This document shows, one piece after another, positions 1-8,857 of a stretch of 8,857 bases of DNA (position 1 is its first letter; each line of letters starts with the position of its first letter). Source of the stretch: a virus (Duplodnaviria > Heunggongvirae > Uroviricota > Caudoviricetes). The notes below the pieces were generated by a model. The model ran no database searches. It was not told the DNA's origin and saw only the letters and a list, made by a program, of their open reading frames with translations. A program made the translations under genes and the position numbers. The stretch lies in IMG/VR virus record IMGVR_UViG_2541047595_000014; one strand, 5' to 3'.

Positions 1-119
1 AGCAGGTATGCCTGAAAGCGTGCGTATTGCCTGAAAACACAACCCGCTACGGGGGAGACTTACCCGAAATCTGATTTATTCAACAAAGCCGTTACGCTGC
101 TCACCATCCGGATCGCAGC

Positions 120-147
120 AATAAAAAAGGCCACCCGAAGGTAGCCT
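120..147 (-). terminator. Candidate rho-independent terminator downstream of the head morphogenesis gene
   Basis: Minus-strand RNA would read A-GGCUACC UUCG GGUGGCC-U followed by UUUUUAUU: an 8-bp stem with one G-U wobble, a UUCG tetraloop, then a U-tract, about 20 nt after the stop codon at 167-169. Seen directly in sequence; no folding energy computed. Confidence 0.5.
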
Positions 148-166
148 GTTGTAATAAATGATTTAT

Positions 167-1282
167 TTAAATCCCTGCTTTTCTGAATACCTGTGCATCA
201 CGCTCACGGAGCTGCTTCAGCGTCAGCCATTCGCCTTTATCGGTGTAAAATTCATCTGGCGACATACCACCATCCCGAATCAGCTTTGCTCGGCTTTCCC
301 CCACAATCTGTTTTTGTCTGGTGTAAGGCTGACGCAAAAACCATTCCCTGTAGGTTGTATCTCCGGCCACCACGCCATCCATGCTGGCCCGCTCAGCCGG
401 GGAAATATCGCGAACATCAATACCCAGTTCCTTCGCTGATTTCAGAATGAACGTTTCCGTTGAGCGGCAGCAGAAATGAATTTTTCCCGGCCCCTGCAAA
501 TAAGGCACGCTGTGACCTACAGGTTTATTATTCAGCGTATATTTGAGGCGATCCCTGATTCGACATTGTGGCGTAGTACGATTATCAAGCGTTGATAACC
601 ATTGCTTACCCTTAATCAAATCATTATTCGCGCTGGCAAAACTCTCACGGGCAGTAGCAGCAAGATGTCCAACCGCTGTTTTTGCAATGCTGGCCGCATT
701 AGCCCGGCTCATCTGCAATGCACCATCCTGAAATCCCTTACTGACATGTCCCCGAATTTTTCTTGCGATCTGCTCATTGGTATCCCCCAGCAAAAAACCC
801 TGACGCACTGTATTTGTTATGCGTCTGAGCCGATCCGCCTCAAGATCTGAGGCCCACTCACTGAGCAGTCGTCCCTGGAATGGTCGCGCCATTGCAGCGG
901 CATAAAGTGCATCAGGAGAGATACCAACCAGAGGGTGAACATCAGCAACAAAATCAGGTAGCATAGAATCAAACAGACTTAACTGATAACCAGCCTCATA
1001 AATTGCCAGCTCGTTCAGCTCTCCGGAGAGACTGGTAAACATGCTGTTAATAGCAGTGCGGTTAACCTCTCTGACGCTCGCCAGAAGTGACTCCAGGCGC
1101 TTAACGGTAAAACTACCTGGATCGAGGCTGTCCAGTGCTATCAGCAGGCGAGCAGTAAGTTCCGCATCGCTGTCATTCAGTATTTTCACCATTCTGGCAG
1201 CCACGCCAGTGCTATAGCGGGATATCCAGACTGCATGAGCAATTGATTCATCACGCAGCCGTTCATTCACGGTTTGCATCAT
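167..1282 (-). CDS. Phage head morphogenesis protein, Mu F / SPP1 gp7 family (minor head protein)
   Basis: 371-aa ORF immediately downstream of the portal gene, overlapping it by 20 bp. The C-terminal half carries the motifs I associate with the Mu F domain: LDNRTTPQCR (D-x-R-T-x-P-x-C) and GKIHFCCRS (H-x-C-C-R). Start is ATG at 1282, with a second in-frame ATG at 1279. Synteny terL-portal-MuF matches Mu and SPP1-type head modules. Confidence 0.75.
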   Translation of the reverse strand: MMQTVNERLRDESIAHAVWISRYSTGVAARMVKILNDSDAELTARLLIALDSLDPGSFTVKRLESLLASVREVNRTAINSMFTSLSGELNELAIYEAGYQLSLFDSMLPDFVADVHPLVGISPDALYAAAMARPFQGRLLSEWASDLEADRLRRITNTVRQGFLLGDTNEQIARKIRGHVSKGFQDGALQMSRANAASIAKTAVGHLAATARESFASANNDLIKGKQWLSTLDNRTTPQCRIRDRLKYTLNNKPVGHSVPYLQGPGKIHFCCRSTETFILKSAKELGIDVRDISPAERASMDGVVAGDTTYREWFLRQPYTRQKQIVGESRAKLIRDGGMSPDEFYTDKGEWLTLKQLRERDAQVFRKAGI

Positions 1283-2669
1283 TGATTTCCATCAGCATTA
1301 CACTCTGATTTTTTAATTCATCGATCACTTCCTCTGGACGGGAATCCTGATCGATAAATTTCAACGCCTGCAACACCCGAACCGCATCAATCTGACGTAT
1401 ATCACCGCCCTGACGCAATGACTGAACAGCCAGCGCGGAGGATGAGTCAAACACCTGGGCAGATACATCCAGTTCAGTGCGCACATCCACATTGCCACCG
1501 CAACTCTCTCCGATCCATTCCGCCATTATCTGGAGAATATTATCGAGGGCATCTTCGAGGGAGTTCGCCATTGTATAAAGCGGCGAGTTTTCCTGCATTC
1601 GCTCTTCATTAGTCTGATCAACAGATTTGGTGGATGTATTTTCAGCACGCAGAAGTTTAGCGCCGGCATGACGCATCTGATTTTCCAGCTTCTCAAGTGA
1701 TGTTTCGCCAGATTCTATCGCTGCGCCACTATGTTCAACATATTCGAGGCCATTTTTTGTTCTGTCCTCAAAAATCGTAGCGGTGGATGCACCAACCGTC
1801 AGTTCTTCATTCCTGTCCAGCCCGTAGGCCACCAGCAATGGAACGCGGGCAACATGAAGAATATTGTCCTGCTCGCTCTGGCTTTGCCAGTGCTTGATAT
1901 TCAGCAAGCCAAGATTAAGCAATGGCGGTGTACCACGCATAAATCCTGTTTTCTTCGTGTACAGTGTTACCAGAGGAATATCATCACGGCTGGTATTCCA
2001 TGACTCATGAAGCGTCCAGACAGATTCGCCATTAGTGCCTTCGCTACGTCGATAAATTTCAACTCGACGGGGCATAATATGGCGGATCTGCTCCACCTTC
2101 TTCTGCCCGAAATCATCACCATCAATAATGATGACCTCTTTTATACGCAAATCAGTGAGAACAACTTTCCCTTTTTCAACTTTCGATTTCCATCCAATAA
2201 CCTGGCGTGGATTCAGCATCGTAACGTACGGGCGACCACCGGCCGCGTTTTCATCGGCTTTTGTCCGAATCTCGTTCATATCCGTTCGTGGATAGTCCAC
2301 CAGCGCATGTGCCACACCATACTGAAATGCGAGACTGAAAAATTGCTGCGCCCACACATCCAGTCGGCTCCCCTCCATGTCGATATTTTCTGCATATTCC
2401 CTGATTTTTTCCGGCGTTTCCTCACTCAATACTGTCGGCTCTGCAAATATGCGCCCAATATTTTGTTTGATGCTTTCTTCATACACAGGAAGTAACGTAG
2501 CCACAGACAGGCGTTTTTTATAAGCGTCTTCATCTTCATTAGGCCATTTGGGGAGATAATTTTCCCCCTGCCTGCGCATTTCAAGCGTACCGCCCATCAA
2601 TGCGTCGTTAATATCCCACGCCTCCAGCATATCGTTATAGTCGAGGTTGGGTGTTGATATATCAGCCAT
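1263..2669 (-). CDS. Phage portal protein
   Basis: 468-aa ORF whose ATG at 2669 sits 2 nt after the terL stop (TAA-TT-ATG), indicating translational coupling. Size and position between terminase large subunit and the Mu F-like gene are typical for a portal. Family assignment is by synteny and size, not by a recognised motif. Confidence 0.7.
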   Translation of the reverse strand: MADISTPNLDYNDMLEAWDINDALMGGTLEMRRQGENYLPKWPNEDEDAYKKRLSVATLLPVYEESIKQNIGRIFAEPTVLSEETPEKIREYAENIDMEGSRLDVWAQQFFSLAFQYGVAHALVDYPRTDMNEIRTKADENAAGGRPYVTMLNPRQVIGWKSKVEKGKVVLTDLRIKEVIIIDGDDFGQKKVEQIRHIMPRRVEIYRRSEGTNGESVWTLHESWNTSRDDIPLVTLYTKKTGFMRGTPPLLNLGLLNIKHWQSQSEQDNILHVARVPLLVAYGLDRNEELTVGASTATIFEDRTKNGLEYVEHSGAAIESGETSLEKLENQMRHAGAKLLRAENTSTKSVDQTNEERMQENSPLYTMANSLEDALDNILQIMAEWIGESCGGNVDVRTELDVSAQVFDSSSALAVQSLRQGGDIRQIDAVRVLQALKFIDQDSRPEEVIDELKNQSVMLMEINDANRE

Positions 2670-2671
2670 AA

Positions 2672-3979
2672 TTAAATCCGAAGTGATGTGACTCTTCCGG
2701 TCGGTTTGACAATAGGGAATTGCTTAACGATGAAATAACCTCCGGCATCATTCGGGTGATCATTGCCAGATTTTTTATCAGGCTCCCCCTTATCATCCCA
2801 GACCTGTTGCTCCAGAGATTCGGCATATACCGGACAACGCTTCACATTAACTTTATAGCGACGCTCACCATTGGCATTGCAGAACATTGCATTCATTGAG
2901 TTAACGCGATCTTTTACTGGCGGGTTCGAGCTGTTCACCACAACGTTAAAACCTGCCTGCTTAAGCTGGGCTATATCCGTCGTACTTGCGTTACTTGATT
3001 TTCTGGAATCTCCGGAAGCATCTGGATAAATATAAATCTCCCTCACTTTCCGGTAATCATGCCCGTCATACAGCCAGAAGCGTTCTTTAATGAGGCGGAT
3101 CATATCCGGCGTATCGTAGGCATTGATGATTTCAGTTACCGCACATGGAAGCCCCAAACGCAGCACATGGACGATTCCCGCCATCTTTCCAACGTTAAAA
3201 TCCATCCCAATATAAATCGGCTCCCCTGGCTGCTCCACTTCTTCGCAATTATTCAGTTTCCGGTCAAACTGATGGTAAACAGTACCACTTGTCAGGTTAG
3301 TAAACCGTCCTAGAAGATAGGCTTTAATCAGCTCTGGAGGGTATGATTCAAGAAGTGAAGGAATGTAATCTGCTGGCAGGTTCTTTTCATTATCGAAAGT
3401 AGATGCCTGCACCAGACCATACAGTGAGGCCAGCTCTGTTTTTTCACGCACGGCTTTAACAAACTGCTCGTAGACAAATTTGAATCCTTCCGGCGTGGTT
3501 GTAACGTCAATACCGTTGCGAAGTCCATCAATCTTATAACGCATACGCGCAATTATCTTGCGCCACGCCGTTCTGGCTTTTTCCTTCGGCAAAATGTCCA
3601 GTTCATCCACCAGCGCATTACCAATTTTGAAACCGACGATCGTTTGTGGCTTCTCCATCGATCTGCAGATAGTGGTTCCCCGATACTGGCGTCCGTAATA
3701 AAAGTGAACCTCTTTATTTCCCTCATTAATTTTTACGTTCAATCCCCAGTCAGCAGCAACTTCTTCCACTGTAGGGTAAAAAATATCGCGAATTTGGGGA
3801 TACGTTGGCGCAAAATATCCCTGATTTATACCTGGATGCTCCCAAATCCCCTTGCATATGCCGCCACACCCAACCCATGTTTTGCCCGAGCCAAAACCAG
3901 CAATATAGGCTTTAAATTTATGGGGCATTGAAAGAAATCGCGCCTGAGGCACATTAAGCGTCGGAGAGATCATCTTCAT
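2672..3979 (-). CDS. Terminase large subunit (ATPase plus nuclease)
   Basis: N-terminal Walker A motif AGFGSGKT (encoded around 3878-3898), a hydrophobic-DELD Walker B-like stretch (LVDELD), and C-terminal acidic motifs (IGMDFN, YPDASGD) consistent with an RNase H-like nuclease domain. The ORF track starts at a GTG at 3982; I prefer the ATG at 3979 (AAGGAG Shine-Dalgarno just upstream), though the ATG at 3973 is also possible. Overlaps terS 3' end by 26 bp. Confidence 0.9.
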   Translation of the reverse strand: MKMISPTLNVPQARFLSMPHKFKAYIAGFGSGKTWVGCGGICKGIWEHPGINQGYFAPTYPQIRDIFYPTVEEVAADWGLNVKINEGNKEVHFYYGRQYRGTTICRSMEKPQTIVGFKIGNALVDELDILPKEKARTAWRKIIARMRYKIDGLRNGIDVTTTPEGFKFVYEQFVKAVREKTELASLYGLVQASTFDNEKNLPADYIPSLLESYPPELIKAYLLGRFTNLTSGTVYHQFDRKLNNCEEVEQPGEPIYIGMDFNVGKMAGIVHVLRLGLPCAVTEIINAYDTPDMIRLIKERFWLYDGHDYRKVREIYIYPDASGDSRKSSNASTTDIAQLKQAGFNVVVNSSNPPVKDRVNSMNAMFCNANGERRYKVNVKRCPVYAESLEQQVWDDKGEPDKKSGNDHPNDAGGYFIVKQFPIVKPTGRVTSLRI

Positions 3980-5048
3980 CACTCCTTAATCTGGCATCAA
4001 CCACATTAATATTGATCGCCACAGGCTGGGGATGTTCATTATCCTCCACCGTTTCGATCTCTTTGCGCAGCTTCTGGTTCTCTATTCTGCGCCGTTCAAT
4101 TTCCAGTTCCTGTAGCCGCTTATCTGCACATAATGCCCCGCCAGCAGAAAGCAAACGCAACAATTCACGCCGGGCGGCAGCCTTATCCTCCAGCAGGATC
4201 TCAACACCGTATTTTCCGAGCTTTGACCCTGCATATAATTGCCGCGCATCCCCATCAAGCAGTGTGGTATCAGCCATATAAAGCTGTCCTGTTCCCTCAC
4301 CGCAGCACTTCGGGCAATCAGGATTGGGTATGGCGTTATCAACAAAGCCGAGGCCTCCATATTCCGGCTCGGGTTTACCATCTCTGGAGGCCTGTGCCGC
4401 AGCCTTATCGAATTCTGCAATATCACGCCACTGGTAGAGATGATTCTCGCCCCAGCAATAACGGCAGTTAACACGGCGAAATTGTGCCAACTGATTGGGG
4501 TCGGCCTGGACAATGGCCATCAACTGGCTCACCAGTAAATCCAGGTCTGCGGTATAGCGTTTCTGGTACTGATTGCGGAAGTAGCTGATAGCACGATAAA
4601 CCCTGGCATTTCTAAGCATACGGCTGGCGTTGCTGTTAGCTGTCGCACCTTGCCCCTCATAACCAGCCAGTCGGTATGCCTCTGTCGGCTTTTTCCCCTG
4701 AGCAACCAACATGGCGAATTTTGCCTGCTGGTCAGAAATACCGAATTCATCGGGGCAGAACGAAATTTCTTCCGTGTCCCCCTCAATCAGGAGTGCATCG
4801 GATACAGCCTTTTTTTTCTGAGATTTTCCGTTCTGCCTTTGCGCAGTCTGCGCAGTTTTTTTTCGCGCACTTTTTTGCGCAGTTTTGCGCATTTCTTTCT
4901 GCGCATTTTTCGGAGTTTTTTTGATGTAACGACGGGCTGTTGCGTAGTTCAGTCCCCTTGCTTCACACCATGCCACCGGAGATATACCGGAGCGGGTGTA
5001 TTCAGCAATATACTCCTGCTGCAACGCCCCCCAGTCCGGTCTGCTCAT
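3954..5048 (-). CDS. Terminase small subunit, unusually long multi-domain form
   Basis: 364-aa ORF directly upstream of and overlapping terL. The central region (FAMLVAQGKKPTEAYRLAGYEG...SNASRMLRNARVY) resembles the Terminase_2-type small-subunit DNA-binding fold. It also has an N-terminal HTH-like segment, a Lys-rich low-complexity linker, a C-terminal Cys-x2-Cys...Cys-x2-Cys-Cys motif (CRYC...CPKCC) and a charged coiled-coil-like tail. ATG at 5048 with AGGA about 8 nt upstream. Confidence 0.75.
   Translation of the reverse strand: MSRPDWGALQQEYIAEYTRSGISPVAWCEARGLNYATARRYIKKTPKNAQKEMRKTAQKSARKKTAQTAQRQNGKSQKKKAVSDALLIEGDTEEISFCPDEFGISDQQAKFAMLVAQGKKPTEAYRLAGYEGQGATANSNASRMLRNARVYRAISYFRNQYQKRYTADLDLLVSQLMAIVQADPNQLAQFRRVNCRYCWGENHLYQWRDIAEFDKAAAQASRDGKPEPEYGGLGFVDNAIPNPDCPKCCGEGTGQLYMADTTLLDGDARQLYAGSKLGKYGVEILLEDKAAARRELLRLLSAGGALCADKRLQELEIERRRIENQKLRKEIETVEDNEHPQPVAININVVDARLRSDEDDLSDA
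4805..4925. repeat. Low-complexity repeat tract inside terS (T-runs and GCGCA repeats on plus strand)
   Basis: Plus strand shows tgcgcag / ttttgcgca units interspersed with T homopolymers of 6-8 nt (for example 4810-4817 and 4856-4863). On the coding strand this encodes the Lys-rich linker KKTPKNAQKEMRKTAQKSARKKTAQTAQRQNGKSQKKK. Seen directly in sequence. Confidence 0.8.
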
Positions 5049-5051
5049 CAG

Positions 5052-5303
5052 TTAGTCCTGATTTTTATCCACCCTGAGTAGTTCGCGCAGAGCAAAGGCA
5101 TCCCCTTTTCTGGCAAGCTTAAACAATGCCGCTCGTAACTCGGCTTCACCTTTCGCTCTGCCCTTACGGATGGCCGCATAAAAATCTGTCATTGCTTCCC
5201 GATTTTCTTTCAGTCGGTTCAGATCAACATCCAGAACGTCAGCGATTTGTTGTGCAGTCATCCGGCACGCTGCCAGAGACTCGACTTTCGAATACGGAAT
5301 CAT
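5052..5303 (-). CDS. Small hypothetical protein (83 aa), possibly helix-turn-helix, leading the packaging operon
   Basis: ATG at 5303 preceded by GGGGGTGA (Shine-Dalgarno-like). Stop TAA at 5052-5054 is separated from the terS ATG by one codon (TAA-CTG-ATG) and is in the same reading frame as terS. Basic, helix-rich sequence (TAQQIADVLDVDLNRL...). Function not recognisable from sequence. Confidence 0.5.
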   Translation of the reverse strand: MIPYSKVESLAACRMTAQQIADVLDVDLNRLKENREAMTDFYAAIRKGRAKGEAELRAALFKLARKGDAFALRELLRVDKNQD

Positions 5304-6171
5304 TTGTCACCCCCATTGATATGCAGGGTGTCTTCTTCCTGTATTTTTCGTGAAGGATTTTTACTGCAGCGTTGTTCCAGGTGACCTGATGGTGAATGCG
5401 TTTATGGCTGGCACCCATCAGTGAGATTTTTACGCACGACGGCGAATACATGACGGAGTAAAAACTTTTAACGTAGGTTCCGGAATCCAGATACAGCTCG
5501 GTCATTCCGCCGCTGTTTTTCTGAGTCTGTTTCTGCCCTAACTGGACAGCACCGATCGTCATAAACAATTCACCACAGCGACCGAGATTCGTGTACGTAT
5601 TCACATCCTCGTTAATGCGCCCCATGAATGAGAACGGTCGATCAACCGAACAGATAAAGCTGTTCATTGCCTTGCGTTTCACCCACGAAGCATGGCCGCC
5701 ATTGTCACCAAGAAAATCCCCGCCCTGCGACATAGCGATGGAAAGCGCGGGTATTGATTCGTAATACGCCAGCATTTCAGAAAGGATCGCATCCAGTTTC
5801 CTTATCGGGAAATAGGCCTGGTCATAGTTGCGATCCACCCGAAACTGGAACTCGTGATAATCATCATCGAGCTGAATGAAGTATTTACACCCGACCAGTT
5901 TTGCCAGGTCGAAACAGGCATTACGGGCGTAAAAAATTGAGCGGCGATCACCAAAATTATCGGCTTCGTCAAAACGACTGGCAATATCGGCTTTGGAAAA
6001 TACCAGCACCTGTTCACCAAATTCAGCCATGTACTGATGCCGTGTCTTATCTTCATCATCAACAACGATAAAAATTTTCCCGGTATAGCCAGCACGACGC
6101 AACGTCCGGTAAGTCAGAACTTTGTCCGGTCGCCCGTGAGTCAGAATAAAGGCGCAAAAATCATCACGCAT
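5239..6171 (-). CDS. GT-A-fold (GT2-like) glycosyltransferase-like protein, apparently soluble
   Basis: Preferred start is the ATG at 6171, immediately preceded by GGGAGGAGGAGGAGG (strong Shine-Dalgarno); the ORF-track start at 6195 is rejected. The N-terminal ~105 aa show the GT2 motif order: AFILTHGRP (first strand), KIFIVVDDED (acidic nucleotide-binding loop), then FYARNACFDLAKLVGCKYFIQLDDDY with the DDD (DxD) encoded at 5860-5868. No obvious transmembrane segment. Function is inferred from motif pattern only. Confidence 0.55.
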   Translation of the reverse strand: MRDDFCAFILTHGRPDKVLTYRTLRRAGYTGKIFIVVDDEDKTRHQYMAEFGEQVLVFSKADIASRFDEADNFGDRRSIFYARNACFDLAKLVGCKYFIQLDDDYHEFQFRVDRNYDQAYFPIRKLDAILSEMLAYYESIPALSIAMSQGGDFLGDNGGHASWVKRKAMNSFICSVDRPFSFMGRINEDVNTYTNLGRCGELFMTIGAVQLGQKQTQKNSGGMTELYLDSGTYVKSFYSVMYSPSCVKISLMGASHKRIHHQVTWNNAAVKILHEKYRKKTPCISMGVTNDSVFESRVSGSVPDDCTTNR

Positions 6172-6958
6172 ATTCCTCCTCCTCCTCCCCGCCATGCATG
6201 ATCTCCACCATGCGCTGCGTCATTCGGACAAATCCATTTTCAATAGCCTGCTGATAATCAATGATCACCAGCGCCGACTCCTCGAAAAGGCACTGAATTT
6301 CAGCGGGGGCATGAGCGTAATAGTCCGCAATTCTGCTGAAATTAAACACTGTGTGACGTTCTGCCGCACACAGGAGGAATTTCTCAATATCAGGATCAAG
6401 GGACGCCGAACGTATCCGGCTGATCAGCTCCTGAGTTTTCGTATCGTCGTACAGTTCACTGATATCCGGTTTACCGCCCGACGGCTCATAAACAGGCGTA
6501 TCAATTTTCGTCGTATACGGCTCCTCCTCATTTCCTGTACCGGGCAAAACATCCGTCAACAGTTCATCAATTTCTGTCGGGATGAAGCCTGTCAGGGAGA
6601 CATCAAAATCAGCATTGATTAGGTCCGACAGCTCCATCCGCAACAGATCTTCATCCCAGCCAGCATTCATCGGCAGGCGATTATCTGCCAGGCGGTACGC
6701 CTTTTTCTGCTCATCCGTCAGGCCAGACAGAACAATGACCGGAACAGAATCCATTTTGAGCATTTCAGCCGCCATAACACGACCGTGACCCGCAATAATT
6801 TTGCCCTTTTCGTCAATCAGCACCGGATTAGTCCAGCCGAATTGCTTAATACTTTCTACCAGTTGTGCCACCTGCTCAGTACTGTGCGTCCTGGCATTGT
6901 GCGCATACGGTGACAATTCTTGTAATGGGCGATAGACTATCTTTAATTTCTCGCTCAT
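6164..6958 (-). CDS. ParB-like nuclease domain (ParB/Sulfiredoxin fold) protein
   Basis: N-terminal ~90 aa (YRPLQELSPYAHNARTHSTEQVAQLVESIKQFGWTNPVLIDEKGKIIAGHGRVMAA) match the ParB N-terminal domain pattern, including the GHGR motif. The C-terminal ~170 aa have unknown function and end in an acidic tail (GGEEEEEYA). ATG at 6958 with AAGG upstream; overlaps the next gene by 8 bp. From memory this may be the full-length counterpart of the short ynaK ORF of the K-12 Rac prophage, but I cannot verify that without a search. Confidence 0.8.
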   Translation of the reverse strand: MSEKLKIVYRPLQELSPYAHNARTHSTEQVAQLVESIKQFGWTNPVLIDEKGKIIAGHGRVMAAEMLKMDSVPVIVLSGLTDEQKKAYRLADNRLPMNAGWDEDLLRMELSDLINADFDVSLTGFIPTEIDELLTDVLPGTGNEEEPYTTKIDTPVYEPSGGKPDISELYDDTKTQELISRIRSASLDPDIEKFLLCAAERHTVFNFSRIADYYAHAPAEIQCLFEESALVIIDYQQAIENGFVRMTQRMVEIMHGGEEEEEYA

Positions 6959-6974
6959 ACAGCCTTGCTTTATG

Positions 6975-7012
6975 AATAAAACGCACCCCAGCAGCCAGTG
7001 CTACTGGGGGCG
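6975..7012 (-). terminator. Candidate rho-independent terminator downstream of trkG
   Basis: Minus-strand RNA: CGC-CCCCAGUAG, loop CACUGG, CUGCUGGGG-(U)-GCG, followed directly by UUUUAUU. That is a 9-bp core stem with one G-U wobble, extendable to 12 bp with a single bulge. It lies between the trkG stop (7096) and the ParB-like gene's ribosome-binding site. Confidence 0.45.
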
Positions 7013-7095
7013 GAGGTGTTGCTGGTAAAGTTAGGTATTGGATCAATGAGTGAGTCAACATAATATTAAACTCACAATTATAAATCAGCCATATA

Positions 7096-8553
7096 TTAGG
7101 AGCGCCAAAAAAAACCTGAAAACAATATAATAACAGGATAAATTTCAAGGCGACCAAGAATCATAGCTATGCACATTAAATATTTTGCAATGTCATTAAG
7201 CACTCCGAATGACGATGCAGTAGCCCCAAAACCTAATCCCATATTATTAATACATGCAGCCACTGTTGCAAATGATGTAAGAAAATCATATCCCATACCA
7301 TTTAACACCAGTATAAAAAACACCGTGAAGAGAGTATAAAGAAAAAAGAAACTCCATACAGACCTCATTACACGATCTGTAACTATCTTCCCTCCTACAT
7401 TTACACTTAACAACGCTCTGGGATGAGAAAGTTGATTTATCTCGTGTTTGCTTTGTTTGAAAAGTATAAGAAATCGAAGTGACTTAATTCCACCACAGGT
7501 TGAACCGATACATCCCCCAAAGAAACTTGACAACAGCAAAAACACTATCGTGTGCGTGGGCCAGTTTGCATAATCCTGCGTAGCTAAACCATTATCAGTG
7601 AGCATGGAGCTGGCAAGAAAAAACGAATGAATAAAACTTCCATGCAAGTCATACATACCTATATGCCAGACCTGGAAAGAGGTAACAATGATCACCCCTA
7701 AGGCTATTAACAGAAAGAAACGAAGTTCAATATCTCTGATTAAAGGTTTTATCGTTTTTCTGCTAATAACAATATACCAAAGAGTGAAGTTGAAAGCCGA
7801 TAGCAGGGAAAAAGAACCAGCCACCAGCTCAACCAAATAGTTATTAAAATATCCGATACTCTCGCTATGAGTTGAGAAACCACCAAGCGAAACTGTGGAA
7901 ATCCCGTGACAAATAGCATCAAACAAAGACATTCCTGCAAGTCTATAACAGACAATACAAGCAATACCTAATAAAGAATAAGTTATCCACAGTGTCCGTG
8001 ACGTATCGGCCAGGCGGGGAGTGAGTTTGTCATCCTTAAATGGCCCCGGCATTTCTGACTGATAAAGCTTTGCACCACCAATACCCAATAATGGCAATAC
8101 AGCAACCGCCAGAACAATAACTCCTAAACCACCTATAAAATTTAACTGTGACCGATAGTACAAATATGCCCGAGGTAATGAACTAACATCATCAATTACA
8201 GTTGCTCCTGTTGTTGTTATTCCAGAAACCCCTTCAAATAGAGCATCAATGAACGTTAAATTAAGTTCTGAGTCAATCCATAAAGGGAATGCACTAATAA
8301 CAGAAAACAAAATCCAAAACATTACAATTATAATAAACCCATCACGGGTACGTAATTGAATGCCAGATTTCTTAGTTGTATACCACGCTCCGCCACCAAT
8401 GCAAAAAAATATAACGAAAGTTATAAAGAAAACGAACAGGCTTTTTTCTTTATAAAACAATGCTACAACCATTGGTGGCAACATTGAAAGACTATAGAGC
8501 CAAACCAGGAACCCACACATATGAGTAACAACTCTTACATGAGATGTATTCAT
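7096..8553 (-). CDS. trkG: Potassium uptake protein TrkG (TrkH/KtrB-family K+ transporter)
   Basis: Translation begins MNTSHVRVVTHMCGFLVWLYSLSMLPPMVVALFY..., which I recognise as E. coli TrkG, the Rac-prophage paralogue of TrkH. It is a multi-pass membrane protein with repeated glycine-containing pore-loop-like segments (TTTGATV, SLGGFST, NNMGLGFG). The ORF track's upstream start at 8571 is a TTG; the ATG at 8553 gives 485 aa, the TrkG length as I recall it. The region is visibly AT-rich relative to the flanking phage genes. Confidence 0.95.
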   Translation of the reverse strand: MNTSHVRVVTHMCGFLVWLYSLSMLPPMVVALFYKEKSLFVFFITFVIFFCIGGGAWYTTKKSGIQLRTRDGFIIIVMFWILFSVISAFPLWIDSELNLTFIDALFEGVSGITTTGATVIDDVSSLPRAYLYYRSQLNFIGGLGVIVLAVAVLPLLGIGGAKLYQSEMPGPFKDDKLTPRLADTSRTLWITYSLLGIACIVCYRLAGMSLFDAICHGISTVSLGGFSTHSESIGYFNNYLVELVAGSFSLLSAFNFTLWYIVISRKTIKPLIRDIELRFFLLIALGVIIVTSFQVWHIGMYDLHGSFIHSFFLASSMLTDNGLATQDYANWPTHTIVFLLLSSFFGGCIGSTCGGIKSLRFLILFKQSKHEINQLSHPRALLSVNVGGKIVTDRVMRSVWSFFFLYTLFTVFFILVLNGMGYDFLTSFATVAACINNMGLGFGATASSFGVLNDIAKYLMCIAMILGRLEIYPVIILFSGFFWRS

Positions 8554-8570
8554 ATCTAAATATTCTTTCA

Positions 8571-8604
8571 ATTATAACCACCTTGCTGCAATATTATGAT
8601 TATA
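8571..8604 (-). promoter_or_regulatory. Candidate promoter region for trkG (two perfect TATAAT hexamers on the minus strand)
   Basis: Minus-strand TATAAT at 8599-8604 and again at 8571-8576, in an AT-rich leader upstream of the trkG ATG. No convincing -35 (TTGACA-like) hexamer found at 16-18 bp spacing, so this is a weak call. Confidence 0.25.
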
Positions 8605-8690
8605 CTGTATAAAATTTAACTCCTCTTAGATCTTACTTCACTGTTCCTTATGAAACAATCATCAAAATGAATCATATTGTAGTTAAGATT

Positions 8691-8857
8691 TTACTTTAAA
8701 CACTGCTCGGTTATGTATTGCTGAGCACCTTCAAGTTGGGCCTGCATCATTACCAGTCGTTCCCGGAGGGTGAAATAATCCCGTTCAGCGGTGTCTGCCA
8801 GTCGGGGGGAGGCTGCATTATCCACGCCGGAGGCGGTGGTGGCTTCACGCACTGACT
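8691..8857 (-). CDS. rzpR: Spanin inner-membrane subunit Rz (i-spanin), 3' portion; gene runs off the right edge
   Basis: Minus-strand frame ending at the TAA stop at 8691-8693 translates ...SVREATTASGVDNAASPRLADTAERDYFTLRERLVMMQAQLEGAQQYITEQCLK, closely matching the lambda Rz C-terminus as I recall it. The start lies beyond the window, so it is absent from the ORF track. Symbol follows Rac-prophage naming and is an inference from the trkG neighbourhood. Confidence 0.85.
   Translation of the reverse strand, partial: SVREATTASGVDNAASPRLADTAERDYFTLRERLVMMQAQLEGAQQYITEQCLK
8750..8857 (-). CDS. rzoR: Spanin outer-membrane lipoprotein subunit Rz1 (o-spanin), 3' portion, embedded in the +1 frame of Rz
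   Basis: Frame ending at the TAA stop at 8750-8752 translates ...SQCVKPPPPPAWIMQPPPDWQTPLNGIISPSGNDW, the proline-rich Rz1 signature. It is nested entirely within Rz in a different frame, as in lambda. Start lies beyond the window. Confidence 0.85.
   Translation of the reverse strand, partial: SQCVKPPPPPAWIMQPPPDWQTPLNGIISPSGNDW

What the first reader, a model, noticed from the sequence alone, without database searches (positions are those of the whole stretch)
3954..5048. Terminase small subunit with atypical length and extra modules
Small terminase subunits are usually about 100-200 aa; this ORF is 364 aa. It appears to combine an N-terminal HTH-like segment, a Lys-rich disordered linker, a Terminase_2-like core, a Cys4 motif (CRYC...CPKCC, possibly a zinc ribbon) and a highly charged C-terminal tail. 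That could reflect a fusion of a DNA-recognition protein with terS, or extra regulatory functions.
Basis: partly seen in the sequence, partly recalled or inferred. Interest (0 to 1): 0.5.

Follow-up and report, generated by a model that had tools for sequence, protein, structure and literature searches.

The report
Modular small terminase with built-in pac repeats
This is a real and common E. coli prophage small terminase, long because it joins a P1 PacA-like DNA-reading domain and an uncharacterised four-cysteine domain to a standard SPP1/SF6-type core, and the DNA encoding its "lysine-rich linker" carries a hexamer array that looks like the phage's own packaging signal.

Summary
The ORF is real: minus strand, 3954-5048, 364 aa, good Shine-Dalgarno, translationally coupled to terL. 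RefSeq already calls it "terminase small subunit", and it occurs in 899 of 5426 complete E. coli genomes (Rac-like prophage).

- **Cys4 motif.** It is not an extra of this ORF. C195, C198, C245 and C248 are invariant in 100 diverse relatives. They sit in a ~100-aa domain inserted between the two oligomerisation helices of an SF6/SPP1-type (Terminase_2) TerS. This subfamily is large (F116, Bcep22; usually 240-270 aa). The domain has no solved structural relative.
- **N-terminal ~45 aa.** This is the real add-on: an HTH homologous to the N-terminus of phage P1 PacA and 933W TerS, found on at least three unrelated TerS cores.
- **C-terminal tail.** It follows the TerL type.

The "Lys-rich linker" DNA holds 5 exact TGCGCA hexamers plus one variant in 66 bp. 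Arrays of one hexamer sit at the same place in every gene with this HTH. They occur in different reading frames, exceed what the peptide requires, and track the HTH motif (ARRYIK with TGCGCA, AKRYIK with TGCGAA, P1/933W with TGATCR). I infer a P1-type pac-recognition cassette. This inference is untested.

The parts
3954..5048 (-). terS, 364-aa small terminase subunit (stop codon at 3954-3956)
   Evidence: ORF list. Pfam Terminase_2 1.2e-8. phrog_51 'terminase small subunit' 6.4e-75 over residues 1-364. RefSeq WP_000089446.1 'terminase small subunit' at the identical locus.
5056..5059 (-). Shine-Dalgarno AGGA, 7 nt before the terS ATG; the upstream ORF's stop codon (5052-5054) lies between them
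   Evidence: Read directly from the sequence.
4914..5048 (-). N-terminal PacA-like HTH module (residues 1-45; motif TARRYIK at 37-43)
   Evidence: AF2 helices 6-20, 24-30 and 35-38, pLDDT 88-95. hhalign against P1 PacA residues 3-42: probability 92.8%, E 4e-7. phrog_1711, phrog_370 and phrog_2606 match the N-terminus only. tblastn hits to the N-termini of 933W-type TerS. NCBIfam IS66 TnpA HTH match below cut-off.
4755..4913 (-). Flexible linker (residues 46-98): Lys-rich at 46-82, acidic at 83-98
   Evidence: Composition. pLDDT 80 falling to 44. The sequence and charge of this segment are not conserved among homologous cassettes.
4840..4905 (.). Array of palindromic hexamers: exact TGCGCA at 4840, 4849, 4876, 4886 and 4900, and a variant (CGCGCA on the + strand) at 4864. 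Spacing is 9-15 bp, with A-tracts between copies. This is the candidate pac recognition site.
   Evidence: - 5 of the 9 TGCGCA in the window lie here, against 3.7 expected in the whole window.
- It is the only cluster in the 32.8-kb prophage locus.
- 0 of 2000 synonymous-codon shuffles reach 5 copies.
- One copy is in another reading frame, coding MRK rather than xAQ.
- Homologous arrays lie at the same place in all 11 reference genes and in 62 IMG/VR variants.
4608..4754 (-). Second HTH: SF6/SPP1 G1P-type DNA-binding domain (residues 99-147)
4500..4607 (-). First oligomerisation helix (residues 148-183)
   Evidence: AF2 helix 148-181. It aligns with SF6 TerS residues up to 102.
4182..4499 (-). 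Cys4 insertion domain (residues 184-289) between the two oligomerisation helices. CxxC no. 1 is at 4455-4466 (C195, C198). CxxC no. 2 is at 4305-4316 (C245, C248).
   Evidence: - C195, R196, C198, G200, C245, C248, G250 and G252 are invariant in 100 representatives at 26-52% identity, plus one at 91%. This is the best-conserved part of the family.
- About 95 profile positions here correspond to 14 residues in SF6 TerS.
- The domain model has pLDDT 93.
- No Pfam family matches it.
4041..4181 (-). Second oligomerisation helix, extended into a probable coiled coil (residues 290-336)
   Evidence: AF2 helix 289-336. Its start aligns with SF6 TerS residues 117-153.
3957..4040 (-). Disordered C-terminal tail (residues 337-364, ...PQPVAININVVDARLRSDEDDLSDA), inferred to dock TerL
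   Evidence: - The same tail occurs in Klebsiella and PHB10 TerS, whose cores are only 39-44% identical. The Klebsiella TerL is 88% identical to the window's.
- E. coli alleles 83-87% identical in the rest of TerS carry a different tail (..IIHNSLPMPG..), shared with Yersinia and RothC. They also carry a different TerL, 59% identical to the Yersinia TerL and unrelated to the window's.
2672..3973 (-). terL (large terminase). Its ATG at 3973 overlaps the end of terS by 20 nt, and its AAGGAG SD lies at 3982-3987.
   Evidence: Pfam Terminase_6N 3.5e-32 and Terminase_6C 7.8e-11. Start as in RefSeq. Sequence read directly.

Best explanation
The ORF is the small terminase (TerS) of a Rac-like, headful-type E. 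coli prophage. It is a mosaic of four exchangeable modules.

1. **N-terminal HTH (residues 1-45).** It is homologous to the N-terminus of P1 PacA. A flexible tether of about 55 residues follows.
2. **SF6/SPP1 G1P-type HTH DNA-binding domain (residues 99-147).**
3. **G1P-type two-helix oligomerisation hairpin.** Its tip carries a ~100-aa domain with four invariant cysteines. I infer a structural Zn site, which would place a crown on one rim of the TerS ring.
4. **A coiled-coil helix and a disordered tail** that docks the cognate TerL.

Inferred mechanism:
- The tethered N-terminal HTHs of the ring read the array of six TGCGCA-type hexamers that lies in the DNA encoding the tether itself (window 4840-4905). 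This corresponds to P1, where the pac site is an array of TGATCA hexamers inside pacA.
- The ring of G1P-type HTHs adds weak, non-specific DNA binding.
- The tail recruits TerL, which makes the first cut nearby and starts headful packaging.

Shown here: the module boundaries, the homologies, the invariance of the cysteines, module shuffling, tail-TerL co-variation, and the existence, non-randomness and conservation of the hexamer array.

Inferred only: Zn binding, ring assembly, HTH-hexamer binding, and the pac function.
For: **Identity and context**
- The window is 100% identical to an E. coli chromosome. There the gene is annotated terS, between a small ORF and terL, portal and MuF genes in a Rac-like prophage.
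- Terminase_2 scores above the Pfam cut-off.

**Core**
- The family profile hits SF6 TerS 3zqp at E 8e-17, in two pieces separated by the insertion.

**Cys4 domain**
- The four cysteines and neighbouring glycines are invariant in 100 representatives.
- The subfamily holds 1261 clusters at 50% identity with E <= 1e-10.
- The models are confident: pLDDT 86.5 for the full length and 93 for the domain.

**N-module**
- hhalign against PacA gives probability 92.8%.
- The module sits on Zn-type, 933W-type and PSTCR3-type cores.

**Tail**
- The tail type follows the TerL type in both directions.

**Hexamer array**
- 5 exact TGCGCA lie in 66 bp.
- It is the only such cluster in 32.8 kb of the prophage.
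- With the protein held fixed, 0 of 2000 synonymous shuffles reach the observed count. The same holds for Yersinia, RothC and PSTCR3, and the two Klebsiella genes give 1-2 of 2000.
- The same hexamer is coded in different frames: TAQ, MRK/LRT and CAE/CAK for TGCGCA; SAN versus CET for TGCGAA.
- The densest hexamer cluster falls at gene nt ~110-260 in all 11 reference genes, including P1. In P1 this is the experimentally defined pac site, with cleavage annotated at pacA nt 276-285 between the two hexamer clusters (PMC10028697).
- Arrays are homogeneous within a phage and match the HTH motif: [ST]ARRYIK with TGCGCA in 50 of 50 distinct 5' regions, and [ST]AKR[YH]IK with TGCGAA in 10 of 10. 933W (ARTRIK) and P1 carry TGATCR.
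- Linker charge ranges from +12 to -9, so the peptide chemistry is not what is conserved.
- The SF6-type HTH alone binds DNA weakly and without sequence specificity (PMC4737164). That leaves room for a separate specificity module.
Against: - No experiment on this protein or its close relatives was found.
- The window has one hexamer array, not the two arrays flanking a cut site that P1 has. The Klebsiella relatives do have a 6+3 arrangement.
- TGCGCA holds no GATC, so P1's Dam control cannot apply.
- The R/K-to-C/A association may rest on only one or two evolutionary events. The HTH and the array are about 100 bp apart and are inherited together.
- Slippage in a low-complexity linker can make and homogenise DNA repeats without selection.
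- By the same shuffle test the P1 positive control is not significant (304 of 2000). PHB10, PhiR12_3, Pmp11 and 933W are weak too.
- Zn binding is inferred from sequence only.
Confidence: 0.62

Rival explanations
1. The hexamer array is only a by-product of a repetitive, low-complexity peptide linker produced by replication slippage. The N-terminal HTH binds elsewhere or serves another purpose, and pac lies somewhere else.
For: - The array coincides with a peptide repeat, (T/S)A(Q/N)K.
- Most copies are in one frame.
- Closely related E. coli alleles show point losses of single copies (TGTGCA, TGCACA) without loss of the ORF.
- The shuffle test is not significant for P1, PHB10, PhiR12_3, Pmp11 or 933W.
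Against: - Copies occur in other frames and code unrelated peptides (MRK, LRT, CAE, CET).
- 0 of 2000 synonymous shuffles reach the observed count in four genes.
- Spacing is irregular (9-15 bp), not tandem.
- Two of the three hexamer types (TGCGCA and TGATCA) are palindromes, and TGCGAA pairs with its inverse into TGCGAATTCGCA in Yersinia and RothC.
- The peptide chemistry flips from +12 to -9 while the array stays in position.
- In P1 the corresponding array is the proven pac site.
Confidence: 0.2
2. The N-terminal HTH and the hexamer array form an autoregulatory operator. TerS would bind inside its own gene to throttle late-operon transcription or translation. The array would not be the packaging signal.
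For: An HTH has its likely target inside its own coding sequence. terS is translationally coupled on both sides. Nothing here separates binding for regulation from binding for packaging.
Against: - The module is found only at the N-terminus of proteins that sit directly upstream of terL, in every annotated locus examined.
- Its best-studied relative, P1 PacA, uses the corresponding array for pac cleavage.
Confidence: 0.08
3. The true start is an internal methionine after the linker. That would give a TerS of normal size, with the N-terminal part untranslated or an annotation artefact.
For: M113 lies near the start of the Terminase_2 region. Many family members start about there.
Against: - The N-module is conserved as protein at 35-58% identity across genera, with W6, W27 and C28 invariant.
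- It folds confidently.
- AGGA lies 7 nt before ATG 5048, and no internal Met has a comparable site.
- M113 lies inside the first helix of the G1P-type HTH, so starting there would truncate that domain.
- RefSeq calls the 364-aa product.
Confidence: 0.03

Closest known systems
Bacillus phage SF6 / SPP1 G1P small terminase (Pfam Terminase_2; PDB 3ZQP/3ZQQ, 2CMP)
   Same: - Two-helix oligomerisation hairpin: the profile aligns to both helices, E 8e-17.
- The gene sits directly upstream of terL in a headful-type module with portal and MuF genes.
   Different: - A ~100-aa Cys4 domain replaces the short connection between the two helices.
- An extra N-terminal HTH and tether precede the G1P-type HTH.
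- A long C-terminal helix and a TerL-specific tail are present. No match to the C-terminal part of SF6 TerS was seen.
- 364 aa against 164.
Phage P1 PacA and its pac site (hexamers TGATCA/G, HEX4 and HEX3, inside pacA)
   Same: - Homologous N-terminal HTH (hhalign probability 92.8%).
- An array of hexamers in the coding DNA just after the HTH codons: P1 nt 194-228, window nt 144-209.
- The array is read in more than one frame.
   Different: - Only the first ~45 residues are homologous.
- The hexamer is TGCGCA, without a Dam site.
- There is one array, not two flanking a cleavage site.
- The partner large subunit is a Terminase_6-type TerL, not PacB.
- pac function is shown for P1 and only inferred here.
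Pseudomonas phage F116 and Burkholderia phage Bcep22 TerS (phrog_51 subfamily)
   Same: Same core, with the same invariant CRxCWG...CPxCxGxG domain. These are annotated TerS directly upstream of terL (F116) or at the head of the packaging region.
   Different: They lack the PacA-like N-module and the hexamer array (271 and 259 aa). The module is not a separate gene nearby. Their C-terminal tails differ.
933W / Stx-phage small terminase (L0112) and relatives (RothC, PhiR12_3)
   Same: Same N-terminal HTH module, followed by a hexamer array at the same gene position. 933W has four TGATC[AG] with a 12-bp period; PhiR12_3 has TGCGCA.
   Different: The remainder of the protein is unrelated: no Terminase_2 HTH and no Cys4 domain.
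Herpesvirus terminase subunits pUL28 / pUL56 (zinc fingers)
   Same: In the 2022 TerS review these are the only terminase accessory subunits described with zinc fingers (PMC9611059). The resemblance is functional only.
   Different: No sequence or fold relation was tested or expected. The architecture and assembly are quite different.

Membership tests
Terminase_2 (SPP1/SF6 G1P-type small terminase, PF03592) | Scores above the curated Pfam gathering threshold | tested here: met
   36.1 bits against a cut-off of 26.1, E 1.2e-8.
Terminase_2 (SPP1/SF6 G1P-type small terminase, PF03592) | G1P-type helix-turn-helix DNA-binding domain | tested here: met
   [not shown]
Terminase_2 (SPP1/SF6 G1P-type small terminase, PF03592) | Two antiparallel oligomerisation helices following the DNA-binding domain | tested here: met
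   The profile aligns to SF6 residues 20-102 and 117-153. AF2 gives helices 148-181 and 289-336, separated here by a ~100-aa insertion.
Terminase_2 (SPP1/SF6 G1P-type small terminase, PF03592) | Assembles into a ring (nonamer in SF6) and stimulates or targets TerL | not testable with these tools
   Only single-chain prediction was available, and there is no biochemistry.
Terminase_2 (SPP1/SF6 G1P-type small terminase, PF03592) | Gene directly upstream of, and coupled to, the large terminase gene | tested here: met
   The end of terS overlaps the start of terL by 20 nt, and the AAGGAG SD lies inside terS.
Cys4-insertion TerS subfamily (phrog_51; F116/Bcep22-like) | Full-length match to the family profile | tested here: met
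   phrog_51 E 6.4e-75, residues 1-364 against profile 1-261.
Cys4-insertion TerS subfamily (phrog_51; F116/Bcep22-like) | Invariant CRxCWG ... CPxCxGxG motif pair about 50 residues apart | tested here: met
   C195, R196, C198, G200, C245, C248, G250 and G252 are invariant in 100 representatives. Nearly every full-length representative has two CxxC motifs about 50 residues apart.
Cys4-insertion TerS subfamily (phrog_51; F116/Bcep22-like) | Metal (Zn) bound by the four cysteines | not testable with these tools
   Inferred from invariance only.
Zinc-ribbon fold | Structural match of the Cys4 domain to known zinc ribbons | tested here: inconclusive
   [not shown]
P1 PacA-type pac recognition | N-terminal HTH homologous to PacA | tested here: met
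   hhalign probability 92.8%, E 4.1e-7 over 40 columns. phrog_1711 'terminase' E 2.4e-4, N-terminus only. Pairwise BLASTP is weak (E 0.045).
P1 PacA-type pac recognition | Array of identical hexamers within the gene just downstream of the HTH codons | tested here: met
   TGCGCA x5 plus 1 variant at gene nt 144-209. 0 of 2000 synonymous shuffles reach this count.
P1 PacA-type pac recognition | Two hexamer clusters (HEX4/HEX3) flanking the cleavage site | tested here: not met
   No second cluster in the window gene; the nearest is a single one-mismatch site at nt 345. Klebsiella relatives do have 6+3.
P1 PacA-type pac recognition | Hexamers contain GATC, and cleavage is controlled by Dam methylation | tested here: not met
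   TGCGCA has no GATC. 933W's array does: TGATC[AG] x4.
P1 PacA-type pac recognition | Homology to PacA beyond the N-terminal domain, and a PacB partner | tested here: not met
   BLASTP finds only the N-terminal segment. The partner is a Terminase_6N/6C TerL.
P1 PacA-type pac recognition | Terminase cleavage at or next to the array | not testable with these tools
   This needs mapping of virion DNA ends.

The most novel reading that the evidence does not exclude
Recombination has grafted this cassette onto at least three unrelated TerS scaffolds in enterobacterial and Pasteurella phages, including Stx phages. Its specificity is re-tuned in step: ARRYIK with TGCGCA, AKRYIK with TGCGAA, and 933W/P1 with TGATCR. 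If so, pac sites of hundreds of prophages can be read from sequence. Separately, the invariant Cys4 domain would be a new metal-binding fold that crowns the ring of a very large TerS subfamily.
Probability: 0.45. Interest if true: 0.75.

Novelty: new variant of a known kind. Interest (0 to 1): 0.55.

Why it matters
- **pac-site prediction.** pac sites are known for only a handful of phages, and how TerS achieves specificity is still debated. The SF6-type HTH binds DNA without sequence specificity (PMC4737164). A TerS that carries a second, P1-like HTH, with a matching hexamer array inside its own gene, gives a concrete prediction for where packaging starts in a prophage family present in about 17% of complete E. 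coli genomes. By extension the same applies to Klebsiella, Yersinia and Stx phages.
- **Applied uses.** It suggests a simple swap experiment: R39K plus TGCGCA to TGCGAA. That bears on generalized or lateral transduction, and on building phagemids and transducing particles.
- **Cys4 domain.** It is conserved in more than a thousand TerS clusters at 50% identity, yet has no Pfam model of its own and no solved relative. In the 2022 TerS review, zinc fingers are mentioned only for herpesvirus terminases (PMC9611059).
- **Limits.** As given, the finding is ordinary: the gene is a correctly annotated TerS.

Tried and rejected
- **Single-sequence PDB search.** It gave only a marginal hit (Pam5 TerS, E 0.13). 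The family profile was needed.
- **Pfam scans of the isolated segments.** Neither the N-segment nor the Cys4 segment matched anything usable.
- **Second hexamer cluster as in P1.** None was found in the window gene.
- **N-module as a separate gene.** It was not found near F116 or Bcep22 terS.
- **Literature searches.** Searches on zinc-binding phage TerS, on F116-type TerS and pac, on pac sites of Stx phages and on the Yersinia phages found no experimental data on this family.
- **Internal start.** Considered and rejected.
- **E. coli alleles.** They are too close (mean column identity 97% over the first 270 nt) to test selection on the array.
- **Other repeats in 3700-5500.** The remaining direct and inverted repeats were short two-copy matches and were not pursued.
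Full report
**1. Where the window comes from**

The window matches E. coli chromosomes at up to 100% identity (positions 91-8857). It lies in a Rac-like prophage. All genes are on the minus strand, in this order:
- trkG (7096-8571)
- a ParB/YnaK-like gene (6164-6958)
- a TAGT-family glycosyltransferase (5239-6195)
- a small ORF (5052-5303)
- the ORF in question (3954-5048)
- terL (2672-3973)
- a DUF4055 portal gene (1263-2669)
- a MuF-like head protein (167-1282)

RefSeq annotates the ORF as "terminase small subunit", WP_000089446.1, with exactly these ends. The first 449 nt of the gene occur in 899 of 5426 complete E. coli genomes.

**2. Checking the observation**

The ORF is 364 aa. AGGA lies 7 nt before the ATG, and the upstream ORF stops 3 nt before it. 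The terL ATG lies 20 nt inside the 3' end of terS, behind an AAGGAG.

- A folded N-terminal helical segment (residues 1-45, pLDDT 88-95).
- A Lys-rich, low-confidence linker.
- A Terminase_2 match above the Pfam cut-off. It spans 195 residues for only 110 profile positions.
- C195-x2-C198 and C245-x2-C248.
- A long C-terminal helix and a disordered acidic end.

The claim that the length is atypical is not. In an exhaustive search, 1261 clusters at 50% identity match at E <= 1e-10. Relatives without the N-terminal module cluster at 240-270 aa, and those with it are mostly 306-381 aa. F116, Bcep22 and 933W TerS are 271, 259 and 268 aa.

**3. The core is an SF6/SPP1-type TerS with a large insertion**

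- A profile of 100 representatives finds Bacillus phage SF6 TerS (3ZQP) at E 8e-17, in two pieces. The HTH domain plus the first oligomerisation helix forms one piece (profile 8-90 against chain 20-102). The second helix forms the other (186-222 against 117-153). About 95 profile positions thus replace 14 residues of SF6.

**4. The Cys4 motif is a family hallmark in a domain with no known relative**

- In the 100-sequence alignment (26-52% identity to the query, plus one sequence at 91%) the invariant columns are C195, R196, C198, G200, C245, C248, G250 and G252. The insertion (about residues 181-290) is the best-conserved part of the family, more so than the HTH.
- Nearly every full-length representative has two CxxC motifs about 50 residues apart.
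- Modelled alone (residues 184-289), the domain has pLDDT 93. It has a strand before each CxxC, one helix between them, and a closing beta-hairpin.
- In the 2022 review of small terminases, zinc fingers are mentioned only for herpesvirus subunits (PMC9611059).
- A structural Zn site is the obvious inference, but it is not shown. "Zinc ribbon" as a fold is not supported.

**5. The N-terminal segment is the real add-on, and it is PacA-like**

- tblastn with residues 1-84 finds the N-termini of 933W-type Stx-phage TerS and of several "hypothetical" proteins directly upstream of terL.
- An alignment of nine such N-termini (35-58% identical to the window's; W6, W27 and C28 invariant) matches the N-terminus of phage P1 PacA by hhalign: probability 92.8%, E 4e-7, over 40 columns.
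- The module sits on at least three unrelated cores: the Cys4/Terminase_2 core (window, Klebsiella, Yersinia, PHB10), a 933W-type core (933W, RothC), and a PSTCR3-type core.
- It is not present as a separate gene next to F116 or Bcep22 terS.
The protein has two HTH domains of different origin.

**6. The C-terminal tail goes with TerL**

- Klebsiella and PHB10 TerS are only 39-44% identical to the window's. They nevertheless end in the same ...PxPVxININVVDAR... tail. The Klebsiella TerL N-terminus is 88% identical to the window's TerL.
- Conversely, E. coli alleles 83-87% identical to the window TerS switch after about residue 300 to a ...IIHNSLPMPG... tail, shared with Yersinia and RothC. Their TerL is 59% identical to the Yersinia TerL and unrelated to the window's.
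- Yersinia and RothC share the tail and an 87%-identical TerL, although their TerS cores are unrelated.
- From this I infer that the tail docks TerL.

**7. The "Lys-rich linker" is coded by a hexamer array**

*In the window*
- The stretch 4840-4905 holds five exact copies of the palindrome TGCGCA and one variant, spaced 9-15 bp, with A-tracts between them.
- Only nine copies occur in the whole window (3.7 expected). This is the only cluster in 32.8 kb of the prophage.
- With the protein sequence fixed and synonymous codons permuted, none of 2000 shuffles reaches five copies in 90 nt.
- One copy is in another frame (ATG CGC AAA, coding MRK).

*In other genes with this HTH*
- In all eleven reference genes that begin with this HTH, the densest hexamer cluster of the whole gene lies at nt ~110-260. 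Only three hexamers occur: TGCGCA, TGCGAA and TGATCA/G.
- In P1 that cluster is the experimentally defined pac site: seven TGATCA/G hexamers inside pacA (PMC10028697). Cleavage is annotated at pacA nt 276-285, between the clusters at 194-228 and 324-347.
- The same hexamer is read in different frames in different phages. TGCGAA codes Ser-Ala-Asn in Yersinia but Cys-Glu in Pmp11. TGCGCA codes Ala-Gln, Leu-Arg-Thr or Cys-Ala.
- The net charge of the encoded peptide runs from +12 to -9.
- Klebsiella relatives have a 6+3 arrangement, like P1's 4+3.

*Match between HTH motif and hexamer*
- Across 63 distinct 5' regions, the conserved motif at the third helix predicts the hexamer without exception among the 60 with an RRY or KR[YH] motif outside P1 and 933W.
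- [ST]ARRYIK goes with TGCGCA (50 of 50). [ST]AKR[YH]IK goes with TGCGAA (10 of 10). Each class spans several core types.
- One TAHRYIK variant also carries TGCGCA. 933W (ARTRIK) and P1 (ARRYLR) carry TGATCR.

*Caveats*
- The HTH and the array are adjacent and inherited together, so the number of independent switches may be as low as one or two.
- The shuffle test is weak for P1 itself (304 of 2000).
- E. coli alleles occasionally lose a copy.

**8. Most likely mechanism**

TerS forms a ring through the G1P-type helices (inferred from SF6). The Cys4 domains sit at the hairpin tips. Several tethered PacA-like HTHs bind the phased hexamers in the DNA that encodes the tether. The G1P-type HTHs add non-specific contacts; the SF6 domain binds weakly and without sequence specificity (PMC4737164). 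The tail brings in TerL for the first cut and headful packaging.

I put about 0.9 on the modular architecture and about 0.55-0.6 on the pac reading. The rivals are a slippage by-product (0.2), an autoregulatory operator (0.08) and an internal start (0.03).

**9. Comparison and novelty**

- The protein passes the tested criteria for Terminase_2 and for the Cys4 TerS subfamily.
- It is not a PacA family member. Only the N-terminal domain and the array principle are shared. The two-cluster layout, the Dam sites and the PacB partner are absent.
- The gene itself is already known and correctly annotated.
- Two things were not found described in the searched literature: the PacA-like reader-plus-site cassette on an SF6-type scaffold, and the conserved Cys4 domain with no solved structure. 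Hence the rating "new variant of a known kind", with interest 0.55.

Noticed in passing
L006:2641-2682 (phage 933W terS L0112, gene nt 141-182): 933W small terminase carries four TGATC[AG] hexamers with an exact 12-bp period, right after its PacA-like HTH. Read on the opposite strand, this is the same hexamer as the P1 pac site, Dam GATC site included, and it codes (I/T)DH(E/K/D) repeats. It suggests a P1-like, possibly methylation-controlled pac site in Stx phages. No mention of it was found in the searched papers.
   Followed up: partly
L008:738-801 and 960-1003 (Klebsiella phage ST974-OXA48phi18.2 terS); likewise L013: The Klebsiella homologues have two TGCGCA clusters (6 + 3 copies) about 160 bp apart. 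The second lies inside the codons of the G1P-type HTH. This resembles the HEX4/HEX3 layout of P1 pac. The window gene has only the first cluster.
   Followed up: partly
window 5052-5303 (-); RefSeq start at 5261: A small ORF (83 aa, or 69 aa in RefSeq) ends 3 nt before the terS ATG. It matches the middle of phrog_309 'terminase small subunit' (8e-23) and, weakly, a Pasteurella phage 'terminase small subunit'. It has no Pfam hit. It is conserved upstream of terS in the E. coli alleles but absent from the Klebsiella and Yersinia loci. It may be a second small DNA-packaging accessory protein.
   Followed up: partly
window 5239-6195 (-) and 6164-6958 (-): A TET-associated-type glycosyltransferase (Pfam TAGT 6e-35; phrog_842 'beta-glucosyl-HMC-alpha-glucosyltransferase') and a ParB_N/Srx-like protein sit just upstream of the packaging genes. 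No TET/JBP gene is in the window. They may form a DNA-modification module.
   Followed up: no
window 6164-6958 (-): The ParB-like ORF is intact here (264 aa). In the identical RefSeq record only its first ~86 codons are annotated, as an 'incomplete' ynaK pseudogene, and the rest is left unannotated. The call was probably modelled on the truncated K-12 ynaK.
   Followed up: partly
window 1-90: The best E. coli matches start at window position 91, although they are 99.4-100% identical from there on. Only a more distant record covers 1-8857, in three pieces. This suggests a mosaic junction near the 3' end of the MuF-like gene.
   Followed up: no
L055:1501-1767 (IMG/VR contig 2529292883_000002): In this variant a 1-nt shift after the HTH codons truncates the ORF to 88 aa, while the five TGCGCA copies stay in place. 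They are then read as Cys-Ala repeats. This is either a pseudogene or a sequencing error.
   Followed up: no
window 7096-8571 (-): trkG (a TrkH-family potassium transporter) lies inside the prophage, next to the lysis and packaging genes. This is the known Rac-prophage cargo gene.
   Followed up: no
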